A DNA stretch of 64,000 nucleotides. Origin: Magallana gigas (Eukaryota). Position numbers: made by a program. Each line of letters opens with the position of its first letter. Position 1 is the stretch's first letter. This document shows positions 9,329 through 21,300 of this stretch, one piece after another. Where the stretch lies: assembly GCF_963853765.1 (NCBI RefSeq), contig NC_088854.1, forward strand, positions 46,128,001-46,192,000. Direction: 5' to 3'.

Positions 9329-12300
9329 TTCACAACTGACAATCGCTGTTTGCTTACAAAAATATGTTTACTAAATTGTGGCAGAAACGTATATACATTG
9401 TATAAATGTCCCTGGTACTGATATTATTGTGTAATGATCTTGATTAAATTTGGAACAAAAGTTCGCGAATTTTATCCACAGAGCATCGGGTTCAACTCAT
9501 CAGTCTGTCGGAACTAGGAACAATGCCCTTAAACAACACATATTTAATGTGTGTTTTATTGACAAATAAATCCAACCCCGCCCGATCGCGTAATGGACGT
9601 TAGAGGTTCGCCGTTATTAAAGAGCTGCTGAACAGATGCCGTGTGCCTTTACCTGTTTAAAAAGACATTTTATTTTTAAAACAATAAACACTTGATAAAC
9701 AAAAACCAAATAGCTATGCCGAGATTTTAAACGCCGATAACACACGAAAATTAGAAGAAGGAATAAATACACATTCATTTTGGCGCGATGCTATTCTTGC
9801 CGTCTGTTGAGCAGTAGCTTACCCATAGTGACGTGTAGCATCCTTGCTGGAGTTATGGAGACGGTAATTTCTATAGATCGACGCCTGACCCAGCGGGTCC
9901 AAGGGGGCCCCAAGGATTTAACCCCGAAGATGTGTGTGATGGACAGCTACAGGAACCAGGGGTCGCGCTGCCGGACAGAGCCCTACCTTCCTACGATCAT
10001 TTTACCTGTTGGAAAAGCCAGGTGAGTAGAATATTACCTTTGTAGGGCCTTGGTTGTTATTCTGCGGTAGTTACTTTCTATTTTATGAAAGTACATCTCT
10101 TTAAACATCGAGATCAAAAGTATGTGAAAGAGAAATGTTTTTGATATTTGTGAAAGGTTTGTGTAGATGTATTGATTATTTATTATCAGATGTACAAAAC
10201 TTCTGGTAAAAGTCGCAAGTACTTGTAAATCGAATCGAACTTTCAAAACATTTCGTAAGAAATAAATGATTTAGATATGAAAACCCCCAGGAGAAACATT
10301 TTTTTCACACTTCATTTGTATATTAATACTGCTAGACATCCATTTTCTTATCGTTGAAATATTGCTATTACGTTTAATAATTGATTGATATTGCTGATAA
10401 AACATCTTTGATGAAAAGTACTTATTTCACCAATACACACCATGCATCGAAAATCAAAGAATATAGGTGAGAATGAATATGAATTTTTTCATTGTGAGCA
10501 GAACTCCAGCAACTTGAAGAAAATGAATCAAATATACAGTAATAAAGAGATTCGCTCAAATATTGTCTATAAATAGTTGTACGCAATGACGTACATTCGA
10601 ACGTTGCAAATTGAATTGTGGTGTTGATGAATACAATTTTTAAAAACTGGAGGAAAGAGGATTGTGTTAAATGCAGTTGTTAAATTGTGCACATTGTCAA
10701 TGTTGTCGTTATACAGCACAGTCGATTTGCATAGCGCATGTACATTTTAACGCGTGGACAATGTGCACCTATTGACGGCTATCAAGAGACAAGGTTGTGA
10801 TAGCTGCACGGCGAGTGCGAAGAGCGATACTGGTCCAAATTTAAAAACCCTTAACGCTGGATAATAAAATCTTCTTATCGTTCACCATCATTTTGTCTTG
10901 CATACATTTACATTAATTTTGTGGAACCTCATAGCGATGCTTGTTGACCAAAGACTTGTTCCCATTCCACACGCTGATCACCAATGTTATATTATTTCAA
11001 ATCCATTTGTTAAAGTAACAAACAAATCTACGGAACACAACAATCCTGACACCCACACACTGCATAGTTGATTTCAAACACGGACAGCCAAACCAATTTA
11101 AATCAGCATTAGATTTTTGTTGGACAAAATAATTGGATCATTCAAAGTTCAAAATTGAAATTAATGTCAAAAGATTCGAAAATTGAATATTGAGTGAGCC
11201 ACCTGTGGCGTATTTTAATGAAACCTTGGCTTGTAAGATTGAGACAGTGACCAAAAACACATATATTAATATCACCGATATCTTTTTTTCACTGCTAGTA
11301 TTACTAGTATCATAAAAATGAATGACTGCTGTTAATTTTCTCTGAAGACACCGAAACACGTATTAGTATTAGAAATAACCATGAAACGGTTGCTTTGGCA
11401 ATGCTATGGGATGGGATGAGGATATAATGACTTTGTTGACGCTTTTTGTTATATTTATAAAACGCTTTTATCGTTAGAATTCAATCTGTCGTGTTGGATG
11501 TCATTTACAGACCAATTATAACGCGGTTACAGAGCGAGCTAGTCGTAAAAAAGCTACATTTACTCACCTTGTTCAACCAGCTGTGATGGGAAGCCGCTGG
11601 GTAGCGGATGTTCATAAAAGGAAGACCGTGTTGCAACGTTAGCTTCAGAACAAAAATCAGTTTTGCACACTACAGGGAAAAAACATCCATGAACGGAGAA
11701 GACGCCAAAGATTGGTACAGAGGCACACAAGATTAATTTCGGTTACTCTTTCGTCTGCATGATGAGTACTGATGACCAAAGCTTAGATGTAAGCTTTTTG
11801 TATATAATTATAAATGTGGATTTCATTTTGCCATGTTTTGGTAGGTGCGACACGGCGGATTCTGTGTGGACCACCAAAGATCAGAGAAGCGAAGACCGAG
11901 TTTGTTCGGACAATAAGGATGTTGAGAGGCGAGGAAATCGAGAACCGCTCGACTGCCTCAAAGTAGCCAAGTTCAAAAGACGGAGACATTTCTTTCACAG
12001 AGTGAGTACAACCTTAGGCTTGTTGTCTGTTTAATTTTTTAATCAACTCTAGCTTGGAATAGAACTTTCCATCTTTCCTGTTTTTTGTTTAGTTTGGTTT
12101 TTTTGTGTTTTGCATCCGCTCGAGATTATTTTCTGAATTTGAGAACTCTGGGTAGAGAAATTAATGCACGTTTGTGAATGAGGCCAATTTGGCCTGTGAA
12201 TCCAGTACAAAAAAATATTTGACAAAAGTAGAATGTCGGTTATTGATGGATTAAAATGCCATAAATTTCAGAGCTGAACATTTAACTGGTACAATGCCTT

Positions 12301-18300: not shown

Positions 18301-21300
18301 CAAAAAGGGAAAAGAGCTTTCGATAAGATAACGGAAGTCGCCTCTCCACGGCTTCAAAGCATTCCTGTGATCCAGGGTCAATGCAGATTACCTGTACATG
18401 AATTGTGTTTACCTGTTTTAATTTTCTAAGCAAAATCTCGTCTTGTCATGTGGCTTCCACGTTGAATTTATCATATCTGCGCTTTCAATCACAATAGCGT
18501 TGTCATTTTGGAACAATGTCGAAATTGAAAGGCGTTGATCTGGTAGAAACGCTTTGTTTGCACTGACCCCACCAGATAACAGAGTTTATATGATGTGATC
18601 AGACTAAACAGAAACAAGGCAAATGTCACCCTCTTTACCTGATTCATATTCCCCGCGCCCAGCCACCATGCCCTGCTGCTTTCTACATCAGAAGGTAAGA
18701 CCAGGGTTTTTCTGCTGCATAGAAATTTTGACAATTACGTGATGTATTTCAAACGAAGTTTAAAAAAAGATGAGAGTATTAAAACAGCGAGATCAAAAGA
18801 AGCAATTGATTCAGTCGTCTCTAAAGAATTGATTCTTTTTTCTTTACAATCGGTCTTGATTTTTCATATGCTTTTTTATTTTAATTTCAATTTCTTTTGT
18901 AAAAGGGAAAGAGTATCAAATGCAATACTTTATCTGTTTTTTTTTATTAGATTATTTTTCTTTCAGTTTCTTGTATTTTCATTTGCTTTGCCTCGCTTGT
19001 TAATTTTTTTATATTCCCCTATTTTGGAGAAAATGGTAAATAATGAATAAAGCTTAATGCTGGAACAGTTAATCAAAATCTGATGTGTAATTGCTGTTGT
19101 GTATTTTAATATTTCAAATTTAATATACTGCCAAGGTAAAAGTACCAATGCTGTCAGCAAAATATGGTAAAATTTGTCGTCGATAAAATCAATTTTTAAA
19201 TATTAAAAGCCCTATAGCAAGGTCTGCAATAGACATGTCGTGTATCATATTTCAATTTACTGCAAGGATGTCATCAATATTAGGTTAACTAGACAAAAGT
19301 TTCCCTCTTAAAGTTTGTGGTGTTTATCATAAACATTTTGGAATATTCTGCCTCAATAAGATCATAAATATTGAGGAAATGATTAGATTTCTTTTACAAT
19401 ACAATGTACCTTATACTTAACGGGCGACGTTATATGCTTACAAAATGTTACACTTTGTGTTTTGTAACGAACGTGCATAGGCCCACAGCACATAAAATTG
19501 AAGTTGTAAATCACACACAAGTTGACCAACTTCATATCTATTTACTTAGTTGCAAATTTTGGGTCGCACGCTTCAACGTTTAACATAATTAAAAAGTTGA
19601 AGAAGTAGCATATTGCTGTCGGTGTAATTCGATAAATATCATATTCATCAAAGAATTTTGCTGTTATGTGTTATTTTAGTTTGGTGGTCTTCTTGCATTC
19701 ATTGGGCTTAGCTACTGAGAAGCCCAGCGATAATTTGTATAGCCTACTAGATTCATTGGAGTAATTGTGGGCTTTGAAATGAAATGTCAATATAGCAAAG
19801 AATATTCATTGAATAGTGAAATAGAATAAATCTATTTCATTTATCCAATTTTGTAAAAAAGACTAAGGCTTCTTTTTTTGTATAGAAGCTAGTTACGAGA
19901 GATACTACTGGGCAACTTTGATAGATAGTAGTCAGTCTCCATGGAAGGCTGTCGGAGAAAGAATAGACCAAAGCACTAGTGGAATATTAATATTTGAAGT
20001 TTTCTACACACACAAACACCCTGTTACCGCACCTGTCGACTTTAATTTTGCTGGACACAAAAACTTATTTTGATAATGGAGTTAAAAGGTTCTTTAGTGT
20101 TTTGTCAAGCTTAAAAACATCTGGTGTCTTTACGTTGGTGAGTAACGCTGAGTGAGGTTTTTGCATGGAGGAACTCTTAGACGTTGAAAAGAAAGGGATT
20201 AATCATGGATCTGTTCGAACGAATTTTATCATCTCCCAAGGACTACCCAATCCCTCCCCTCAAAATAAAAGAAAAAATCAACAACATGTACACAGCATAC
20301 AGTCTTGATGGTTCATCCGGACCGATGGATCACAACTTCCTAAAGGAGCCCGAAGAGAACCACTCGGCCGTAAAAAGGAGATACAGGAAGCGTAACTATA
20401 TAGCATCTCCAAATTTGCGGAAACCTAGGCTTGAACCAATACGGTTCTTTCATATTCCTGAGAATTTGCAGTGGATATATGATAGGGCGAAAGAAAAGCA
20501 GTCGGTGAAAGATGCTCTAAGAAAGCGGCGATTTAAGAGGAAAAAAGAGAAAACGATAGAGACAGTCGTAATACAAGTGATAGAGATTCCAGAACCCGAC
20601 TTAACTCCCAGAAATGTTGTTGAGGTAAAGAAAGAAGGAATGGTGTTAGTACTAGGACACTTCATGTAGAAAGCATAATTAGTGTACGATTTTTTTCCCA
20701 GTAGAAGGCTGTTGTACAAACCGAGGTACAAGATTATGGTACAAACTGTGATACTGAATGTTGTACAAACTGTGTACGAGTGGAACAAACTTTAGTAAGA
20801 CTTGTACAAACTCTAGTACATTGCACGAGATTGGTGTACAAATTGTATTACGAGAAACAAGTTGCAGTACGAGGCTGTTGTAAAATTCGTAACAATTGTT
20901 ATTCTATTTTTGGTTCGTTAGATAATTGTATTTTTTTTATTTGCTTGCAGCCACTGGTCAGATTCAGGCGTGCCGTGAAGACGATACAAGTTTTATTGAA
21001 GGCGACCCTCACCAACTCACAGGGCCAGCGCCATGATCTCCTCTCCTGGGCACACCAAGACACCAGCTCTTCAAAGAGGGAGTACGAGATGTTTGGTCTC
21101 ACCTTTGACCCCGGGGACTTCAGAGCCAAAAAGGAGGTAGAATTCATGTAATAGTACACATATTGTAAATTCTAAAGAAAACCGTTTAAGGACAATAACA
21201 ATTCGGACAGTGGAATTGCTAAGTGAAGTTGTTCCTGTGAATTCCATCGTCAAAAAAGCTAGAAATACGTTAATCTTACTTATCTTTCTTTTTAATTACA

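What the first reader, a model, noticed from the sequence alone, without database searches (positions are those of the whole stretch)
9855..21136. Frame-enforced mutually exclusive exon cluster giving CNBD gene 1 variable N-termini
Seen: a phase-2 first exon (9855-10021) is followed by three unrelated open exons of 3n+1 length (11845-12001, 13057-13381, 15682-16255). Each has a phase-2 acceptor and a phase-0 donor, so any one restores frame into the common exon at 20951 but any two in series shift it. Two more ATG-bearing exons (17845-18111, 20205-20624) also end in phase 0. All five are Lys/Arg-rich and non-homologous. Inference: one cNMP-sensor core gets at least 5 interchangeable basic, probably disordered N-termini. 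Mutually exclusive exons are usually duplicates, so unrelated ones would be unusual.
Basis: partly seen in the sequence, partly recalled or inferred. Interest (0 to 1): 0.65.

Follow-up and report, generated by a model that had tools for sequence, protein, structure and literature searches.

The report
Alternative first exons, oyster CNBD2 gene
An oyster cyclic-nucleotide-sensor gene gives one conserved protein body several unrelated basic front ends, most likely by starting at different first exons, which is an ordinary way to diversify a gene and not the unusual mutually exclusive splicing first proposed.

Summary
The window is oyster DNA (Crassostrea-like). The gene is a CNBD2/CRIS-like cyclic-nucleotide-binding protein.

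**What holds.**
- Database proteins confirm three N-terminal modules spliced to the common exon at 20951: A+B (3 proteins), D (3) and F (2).
- Exon C appears in no spliced protein. Its reading frame is conserved in four other database proteins at 45-88% identity.
- Exon E could not be tested by homology.

**What does not hold.** The reading of frame-enforced mutually exclusive internal exons behind a shared first exon is not supported.
- All 3 D-type proteins start at D's own ATG (15743) and lack exon A.
- Conservation of C starts exactly at its own ATG (13097), not at the proposed acceptor at 13057.

**Best model.** The region is an array of four to five alternative 5' coding modules. Each has its own start codon and a phase-0 donor, and each joins one common acceptor.

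**Caveat.** The AG at 15680-81 scores like a true acceptor, so some upstream exon may splice into D.

This is a known kind of architecture, and it is already annotated as isoforms in related oysters.

The parts
9855..10021 (+). Exon A. First coding exon of the A+B module, with ATG at 9855, a phase-2 donor and CAG|GTGAGT.
   Evidence: One search gives the boundaries. P0004 residues 1-56 map here at 93% identity. C. virginica X3 (P0005) maps at 44% and Saccostrea X1 (P0006) at 48%. The donor score is at the 99.9th percentile.
11845..12001 (+). Exon B. The only module part shown to be an internal exon, with a phase-2 acceptor and a phase-0 donor. It joins A to the common exon.
   Evidence: P0004, P0005 and P0006 read A|B|PLVRFRR. 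The acceptor is at the 97.2th percentile and the donor at the 96.9th.
12696..12803 (.). Conserved block about 300-400 nt upstream of the start codon of C. It may be a promoter or leader element of module C (inference).
   Evidence: P0012 residues 21-56 match here at 72% in a different frame from C. There is no Rfam family here.
13097..13381 (+). Module C. A conserved 95-codon reading frame starting at its own ATG, with a phase-0 donor GAG|GTAATA. It is a probable alternative first coding exon.
   Evidence: P0011 (88%), P0012 (54%), P0013 (53%) and P0014 (45%) were found with exon C. There are 24 invariant columns, all from Met 13097 onward. All four hits are unspliced ORF calls, and P0011 and P0012 read through the donor. 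No spliced protein contains C.
15743..16255 (+). Module D. A 171-codon first coding segment with its own ATG and a phase-0 donor TTG|GTAAGT, rich in [RK][RK]x[ST] sites. A candidate acceptor at 15682 lies 20 codons upstream.
   Evidence: P0002 residues 1-171 match at 99.4% and then run straight into the common exon. Module D is conserved in Pinctada P0008 and Ylistrum P0010, with 40 invariant columns. It has 7 sites against 1.5 in shuffles. The AG at 15680-81 is at the 99.6th percentile.
17845..18111 (+). Module E. A candidate alternative first coding exon of 89 codons, with an ATG and a phase-0 donor AGT|GTGAGT. It is unverified.
   Evidence: Boundaries are. The donor is at the 98.8th percentile. 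K+R is 0.26, above all 50 control ORFs. The codon score is inconclusive. No homologue was found among proteins of 157-2000 aa or in the Atlas.
20205..20624 (+). Module F. An alternative first coding exon of 140 codons, with an ATG and a phase-0 donor GAG|GTAAAG.
   Evidence: C. virginica X2 (P0003, 79%) and Ostrea edulis X2 (P0007, 71%) read F|PLVRFRR. The AG before 20181 scores only at the 55th percentile.
20951..21136 (+). Common exon. It provides the single acceptor that receives B, D and F, and by inference C and E.
   Evidence: It is 100% identical in P0001-P0005. The acceptor is at the 99.8th percentile.
21302..29512 (+). Constant body. Ten further coding exons: 21302-21468, 21813-21886, 22366-22454, 23645-23874, 24392-24543, 26591-26761, 27250-27332, 28268-28369, 28785-28928 and 29378-29509, plus the stop. 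They carry one cNMP_binding domain.
   Evidence: The tblastn mapping of P0002-P0010 is. I read the boundaries from the flanks, and AG/GT was asserted. Pfam PF00027 matches P0002 at residues 288-377 with E=1.7e-20.

Best explanation
The 5' 11 kb of this oyster CNBD2/CRIS-like gene is an array of alternative 5' coding modules: [A+B], [C], [D], [F] and perhaps [E].

Each module has its own start codon and ends in phase 0. Each is joined to the single strong acceptor of the common exon at 20951. The result is one constant body, with a single cyclic-nucleotide-binding domain, carrying one of four or five unrelated basic N-termini.

**How the choice is made.** The most likely mechanism is where transcription starts, that is, alternative first exons or promoters. 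The donor of the module nearest the cap pairs with the common acceptor, and the downstream modules are removed as intron.

**What is shown.**
- The junctions A-B, B-common, D-common and F-common.
- Own-ATG starts for D and F.
- Protein-level conservation of every module except E.

**What is inferred.**
- Separate promoters.
- The C-common and E-common junctions.
- That the modules specify localisation or regulation. Module D would be a multi-site target of basophilic kinases such as PKA or PKG.
For: **Module types among the hits.** The common-exon search returned 10 hits from 14 candidates. Their N-termini fall into these types:
- A+B: 3 proteins (P0004, P0005, P0006).
- D: 3 proteins (P0002, P0008, P0010).
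- F: 2 proteins (P0003, P0007).
- Another N-terminus with no match in the window: 1 protein (P0009).
- An unspliced ORF: 1 protein (P0001).

Each spliced protein carries exactly one module, joined directly to PLVRFRR.

**Own start codons.**
- D-type proteins start at their own Met in 3 of 3 cases.
- In C, conservation across P0011-P0014 begins exactly at Met 13097.
- The residues VI encoded by the donor GTAATA are kept in P0012 at 54% overall identity.

**Acceptors inside the modules.** They are weak or mediocre for F (20181, 55th percentile) and C (13057, 88th percentile). The common acceptor is at the 99.8th percentile.

**Enrichment.** There are 6 ATG-to-phase-0-donor frames of at least 80 codons on this strand, against 1 in 74,285 nt of control sequence.

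**Known elsewhere.** Related oysters already carry 'isoform X1/X2/X3' names for A+B-type and F-type proteins.
Against: - There is no transcript start-site or junction data for this genome, so separate promoters are inferred only.
- The AG at 15680-81 scores like a true acceptor (10.2 bits, 99.6th percentile). The 20 codons between it and D's ATG are open and in frame with A's donor. D may therefore also be an internal exon.
- C is seen only as unspliced ORF calls, so its joining to the common exon is not shown.
- E has no external support at all. The other two unconfirmed scan hits (17088-17288, 18742-19035) have donors nearly as strong, at the 97.6th and 98.0th percentiles against E's 98.8th.
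- No sequence motif is shared by the 500 nt upstream of the five start codons.
- Clusters at 90% identity could hide an A+D isoform inside P0002's cluster. The tool that lists cluster members was switched off.
Confidence: 0.68

Rival explanations
1. Exon A is a shared first exon, and B, C and D are mutually exclusive internal exons. Each is 3n+1 with a phase-2 acceptor and a phase-0 donor, so double inclusion shifts the frame and is removed by NMD. E and F are additional ATG-bearing starts.
For: - The arithmetic is correct.
- The A-to-B junction is real.
- The AG before 15682 is at the 99.6th percentile of AGs.
- The frames between the AGs and the internal ATGs of C and D are open.
- NMD-enforced exclusivity and non-homologous mutually exclusive exons are described mechanisms (PMC6071210, passages read).
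Against: - 3 of 3 D-type proteins lack A and begin at Met 15743 or its equivalent.
- In C, none of the 24 invariant columns lies upstream of Met 13097.
- C's acceptor scores below 9 of the 12 true acceptors.
- No protein with A+C or A+D appeared among the 10 hits or.
- An open stretch of 13-20 codons with an in-phase AG upstream of an ATG is not rare. By my estimate the joint probability is a few per cent.
Confidence: 0.15
2. E, and less likely C, is not an exon of this gene. E would be a chance open frame in a purine-rich patch of intron. C would be an independent small conserved ORF lying within the intron.
For: - No spliced protein contains C or E.
- With a core-only codon model, C ranks 7th and E 3rd against the 50 control ORFs, which does not separate them.
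- Other frames and the opposite strand are also open over C and E.
- Two other scan hits with similarly strong donors (17088-17288, 18742-19035) look non-coding by composition.
- All four C homologues are unspliced ORF calls.
Against: **For C.**
- Protein-level conservation of 45-54% starts at the ATG.
- The donor codons are conserved.
- The library of 1.84 billion proteins gave only 5 hits, so C is not a repeat family.

**For both.**
- K+R of 0.24 (C) and 0.26 (E) exceeds all 50 control ORFs and matches the confirmed modules.
- ORF length was reached by 0 of 1000 local shuffles for C and 1 of 1000 for E.

**For E.** It has a strong donor (98.8th percentile) in phase 0.
Confidence: 0.35

Closest known systems
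Annotated isoforms of the orthologous gene in other bivalves. These are C. virginica LOC111123374 X2 (P0003) and X3 (P0005), Saccostrea cucullata X1 (P0006), Ostrea edulis X2 (P0007), Argopecten irradians X2 (P0009), and the Pinctada and Ylistrum models (P0008, P0010).
   Same: It is the same gene family with the same common exon, 75-100% identical. The same A+B, F and D N-termini join at the same PLVRFRR junction.
   Different: These are automatic gene models. No paper describes them: my searches found 0 papers. None of the proteins I saw carries C or E.
Mammalian CRIS/CNBD2 (PMC3854790; passages read, start of the abstract seen in the listing).
   Same: It is a soluble protein whose only recognised motif is one cyclic-nucleotide-binding domain. 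It is linked to sperm flagella and cilia. PMC10380512 calls Cnbd2 cilium-related in an annelid (passages read).
   Different: The words 'N-terminus' and 'splice' each occur 0 times in that paper. I did not compare mammalian sequences, so homology of the N-termini is untested.
PDE4 genes. Many isoforms arise from alternative promoters and isoform-specific 5' splicing (PMC7460819, passages read).
   Same: Each is a cAMP-pathway protein with a constant functional core. Its N-terminal region is swapped by the choice of 5' exon. From recall, the unique N-termini target isoforms to different partners.
   Different: The protein family is unrelated. The targeting role here is inferred and not shown.
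Variable first-exon arrays such as clustered protocadherins and UGT1A (recalled, not checked in any call).
   Same: There are several 5' exons, each with its own start. Each is spliced to one common downstream acceptor, and one is used per mRNA.
   Different: In those arrays the variable exons are paralogous duplicates with a shared promoter motif. Here the modules are unrelated, and no shared upstream motif was found.
Mutually exclusive exon clusters, including enforcement by NMD or reading frame (PMC6071210, passages read).
   Same: One module is used per mRNA, and B, C and D have lengths of 3n+1.
   Different: A shared upstream exon joined to each alternative is shown for B only. The other modules have their own start codons.

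Membership tests
CNBD2/CRIS-like proteins | A single cNMP_binding (PF00027) domain is the only recognised domain. | tested here: met
   PF00027 is the only family found in each of P0002, P0004 and P0003, with E of 1.7e-20, 4.5e-21 and 1.9e-20. The 7 N-terminal and common exon peptides hit 0 families.
CNBD2/CRIS-like proteins | Closest named relatives are annotated as CNBD2-like. | tested here: met
   [quoted passage not shown] No reciprocal check against vertebrate CNBD2 was done.
CNBD2/CRIS-like proteins | Binds cAMP. | not testable with these tools
   This needs a binding assay.
Alternative first-exon (multi-promoter) array | Each module has its own start codon. | tested here: met
   ATGs lie at 9855, 13097, 15743, 17845 and 20205. 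D and F proteins begin there. Conservation of C begins there.
Alternative first-exon (multi-promoter) array | Every module's donor joins one common acceptor. | tested here: inconclusive
   This is shown for B, D and F. It is not shown for C and E, which have phase-0 donors only.
Alternative first-exon (multi-promoter) array | Each module has a separate transcription start. | not testable with these tools
   No CAGE or RNA data are available. No shared upstream motif was found. There is a conserved block upstream of C.
Alternative first-exon (multi-promoter) array | Variable exons lack usable acceptors. | tested here: inconclusive
   The F candidate is at the 55th percentile, C at the 88th and D at the 99.6th. 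The PWM was built from only 12 sites.
Mutually exclusive exon cluster | The alternatives are internal exons fed by the same upstream exon. | tested here: not met
   Only B follows A. All 3 D-type proteins lack A. Conservation of C starts at its own Met.
Mutually exclusive exon cluster | Exactly one alternative is included per mature mRNA. | tested here: met
   Each of the 9 spliced proteins carries one N-terminal module: 3 A+B, 3 D, 2 F and 1 other.
Mutually exclusive exon cluster | Double inclusion breaks the reading frame. | tested here: met
   The lengths 157, 325 and 574 are each 3n+1. This is arithmetic only, and no double-inclusion transcript was seen.

The most novel reading that the evidence does not exclude
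Modules C and D may be hybrid exons, used in two ways. Each would serve as a first exon with its own ATG. Each would also serve as an internal exon spliced in frame behind exon A.

In that case the 3n+1 rule would make any double inclusion an NMD target. That would be a frame-policed choice among unrelated, independently conserved N-termini on one cAMP sensor.

Separately, the conserved array of RRxS-type sites in module D would make that isoform a kinase-gated form of the sensor, or a pseudosubstrate-like form. That would give a first handle on the unknown effector mechanism of CRIS/CNBD2.
Probability: 0.12. Interest if true: 0.55.

Novelty: new member of a known kind. Interest (0 to 1): 0.3.

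Why it matters
CRIS/CNBD2 is a cAMP receptor whose only recognised motif is its binding domain (PMC3854790, passage read). I found nothing describing how it acts on downstream targets.

In oysters one conserved body is paired with at least three, and probably four or five, unrelated N-termini.
- Each N-terminus is itself conserved across genera.
- Module D is conserved as far as scallops.

This points to the N-terminus as the part that specifies partners, location or regulation. Module D's seven basophilic-kinase sites give a concrete hypothesis that can be tested.

As gene architecture, the region is an ordinary case of alternative 5' exons. Related species already carry it in their automatic annotation.

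Tried and rejected
- **Pfam on exon peptides.** The 7 peptides gave 0 families.
- **The listing of cluster members.** I tried it to see the isoforms inside the clusters of P0001-P0005.
- **Word-index searches of C and E among longer proteins.** They found nothing. This test is weak. It missed P0012, which the exhaustive search later found. The near-length range was never searched for E.
- **Codon-usage scoring.**
  - With the model trained on all confirmed exons, C and E beat all 50 control ORFs.
  - With a core-only model and an own-composition background, they do not separate. C ranks 7th and E 3rd, and confirmed D ranks 6th. The test therefore has little power.
- **F against the Argopecten X2 N-terminus.** E=0.55, which is not significant.
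- **ESM Atlas for E.** The best score was 0.81, at noise level.
- **Rfam on the whole window.** 0 matches.
- **AlphaFold2 of P0002 with a 9-row alignment.** Mean pLDDT was 32.5, and even the binding domain was not modelled. It says nothing about disorder of the N-termini.
  - A charge-hydropathy heuristic puts B to F on the disordered side and A on the folded side. This is weak evidence.
- **Shared 8-10-mers upstream of the five start codons.** None were found.
- **P0015.** I dropped this hit as spurious. It is a repeat protein at 28% identity, with no tblastn alignment at E<=0.001.
- **Literature search.** It was badly framed, and none of the 10 listed papers held the term CNBD2.
- **Joined exon models.** All searches were exon by exon.
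Full report
**What the window is.**
- The sequence is AT-rich, with GC of 0.28-0.39 per 2 kb.
- Searching the common exon (20951-21136) among longer proteins gave 10 hits from 14 candidates. All are bivalve proteins with one cNMP_binding domain.
[quoted passage not shown] They include Crassostrea virginica LOC111123374 isoforms X2 and X3.
- The window is not C. virginica itself. The common exon is 100% identical, but the N-terminal exons are only 44-79% identical.
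- An unnamed transcript-like protein, P0002, is 99.4% identical over module D.
- The DNA is therefore oyster and not human.

**Check of the observation.**
- Every mechanical statement is right.
  - The lengths are 167, 157, 325, 574, 267, 420 and 186.
  - AG precedes 4 of 4 proposed acceptors and GT follows 7 of 7 exons.
  - ATG lies at 9855, 17845 and 20205, and the named frames are open.
- The modules are basic. K+R is 0.16-0.27, against a mean of 0.10 and a maximum of 0.21 in 50 control ORFs. pI is 9.4-11.2.
- The modules are not significantly similar to one another. The best pair is D/F at E=0.01. None hits a Pfam family.
- The pattern exceeds chance.
  - Frames that start at ATG, stay open for at least 80 codons and end in phase 0 at a GTRA donor occur 6 times on the + strand of 9400-20950.
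  - They occur once in 74,285 nt of control strand-sequence. By my arithmetic about 0.16 would be expected.
  - With the stricter donor GTRAG and at least 60 codons, the counts are 4 against 0.
  - Two of these scan hits (17088-17288 and 18742-19035) look like chance ORFs by composition.

**What spliced proteins show.** I mapped the ten proteins back on the window by tblastn and read their sequences.
- P0004, P0005 and P0006 read A, then B, then PLVRFRR.
- P0002, P0008 (Pinctada) and P0010 (Ylistrum) read D, then PLVRFRR.
- P0003 (C. virginica X2) and P0007 (Ostrea X2) read F, then PLVRFRR.
- P0009 (Argopecten X2) has another N-terminus with no match in the window. Its similarity to F is not significant (E=0.55).
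- P0001 is an unspliced ORF across the common exon.
- Three modules are therefore real, each is used alone, and each joins the same acceptor.
- The named proteins are automatic gene models. P0002 and P0004 come from unnamed assembled contigs.

**Module D.**
- All three D-type proteins start at their own methionine (15743 in the window) and lack exon A.
- D is conserved from oysters to pearl oysters and scallops. It has 40 invariant columns, including a stretch ending ...LRRVRSE..VIP.P..N.IL at the junction.
- It carries seven [RK][RK]x[ST] sites, against 1.5 expected from shuffling. That count was reached in 0 of 2000 shuffles and at a frequency of 0.0005.
- The Pinctada module has six such sites (P=0.008) and the Ylistrum module three (P=0.15).
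- Reading these as PKA/PKG-type sites rests on the textbook consensus, which I recalled and did not test.

**Module C.**
- The word-index search found no longer protein containing C.
- The exhaustive representative search found five hits. I dropped one, P0015, as a repeat-protein artefact.
- The other four (P0011 at 88%, P0012 at 54%, P0013 at 53%, P0014 at 45%) are colinear with the genomic ORF. P0011 and P0012 read through the proposed donor. They are unspliced ORF calls and do not show expression or splicing.
- They do show selection. All 24 invariant columns lie at or after Met 13097, P0014 begins at that Met, and nothing upstream of it aligns.
- The residues encoded by the donor (GTAATA, read as V-I) are kept in P0012.
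- C is therefore very probably coding, with its own start codon.
- P0012 also matches 12696-12803 at 72% in another frame. This block upstream of C is better conserved than C itself. It may be a promoter or leader element (inference).

**Module E.**
- It has no homology support. Nothing turned up among proteins of 157-2000 aa, and the Atlas gave noise.
- I had no search left for short proteins, which is the range where the homologues of C were found. The negative result is therefore weak.
- Its intrinsic features resemble those of C.
  - K+R is 0.26.
  - The ORF length was reached by 1 of 1000 local shuffles.
  - The donor is at the 98.8th percentile.
- The codon tests are inconclusive.
- I put the chance that E is real at roughly even.

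**Mechanism.**
- The simplest reading is an array of alternative 5' modules, each with its own ATG and a phase-0 donor, feeding one common acceptor (99.8th percentile). The choice would be made by where transcription starts.
It is right in arithmetic, but only B is shown to follow A.
The AG before 15682 scores 10.2 bits, at the 99.6th percentile of 1125 AGs, with a PWM built from only 12 sites. The 20 codons down to D's ATG are open and in frame with A's donor. Some upstream exon, either A or an untranslated leader, may therefore splice into D.
- I could not look inside P0002's cluster for an A+D form.
All searches were exon by exon.

**Comparison with what is known.**
- Alternative promoters and 5' exons that give isoform-specific N-termini are standard, for example in PDE4 (PMC7460819, passage read).
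- Frame/NMD-enforced exclusivity and non-homologous mutually exclusive exons are also already described (PMC6071210, passages read).
- The CRIS paper reports the binding domain as the only functional motif. It contains neither 'N-terminus' nor 'splice' (PMC3854790, passages read).
- Cnbd2 is called cilium-related in an annelid (PMC10380512, passages read).
- I found no paper on this gene in oysters. [quoted passage not shown] CNBD2 plus 'alternative first exon' gave 1 unrelated paper.
- Supplements were not consulted.

**Not checked.**
- There were no transcript reads, start-site data or other oyster genomes.
- Cluster membership could not be listed.
- The structure prediction failed, with mean pLDDT of 32.5. 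'Disordered' therefore rests on a composition heuristic only.

**Verdict.**
- Its mechanism is more ordinary than proposed.
- It is a new member of a known kind, and interest is modest.

Noticed in passing
window 1-9219: A 2414-bp unit is repeated head to tail with zero mismatches: positions 1-6805 equal 2415-9219, giving at least 3.8 copies, and the window starts inside the array. It ends about 640 bp upstream of exon A. Its ORFs hit no Pfam family. Perfect identity suggests either a very recent expansion or an assembly artefact.
   Followed up: partly
window 9244-9325: An (AT)41 microsatellite lies between the tandem array and exon A.
   Followed up: no
window 38872-41227: A perfect 1177-bp tandem duplication: 38872-40050 equals 40049-41227.
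   Followed up: no
window 12696-12803: This block upstream of module C is better conserved with P0012 (72% in an arbitrary frame) than module C itself (54%). It is a candidate regulatory element. There is no Rfam match.
   Followed up: partly
window 15743-16255: Module D holds seven [RK][RK]x[ST] sites in a loosely repeated R-R/K-x-S-D/S pattern that is conserved in Pinctada.
   Followed up: partly
window ~44000-46300 (+): A second, distantly related CNBD-like gene. ORF 44065-44256 is 46% identical over 28 aa to gene-1 ORF 24336-24548. It includes a 218-aa open exon at 44842-45495 with no family above cut-off.
   Followed up: no
window 48514-50536 (+): Exons of a START-domain gene. PF01852 matches 50339-50536 at E=3.2e-07 and 49122-49403 at E=4.7e-05.
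   Followed up: no
window 20758-21148: P0001 (130 aa, unnamed source) is an ORF read straight through the acceptor and donor of the common exon. The protein collections therefore hold ORFs called on unspliced oyster contigs. That explains the form of the module C homologues.
   Followed up: yes
window 17088-17288 and 18742-19035 (+): Two further ATG-to-donor open frames lie in the variable region. They are hydrophobic or Phe-rich and have low codon scores (-0.25 and -0.34), so they are probably chance ORFs.
   Followed up: partly
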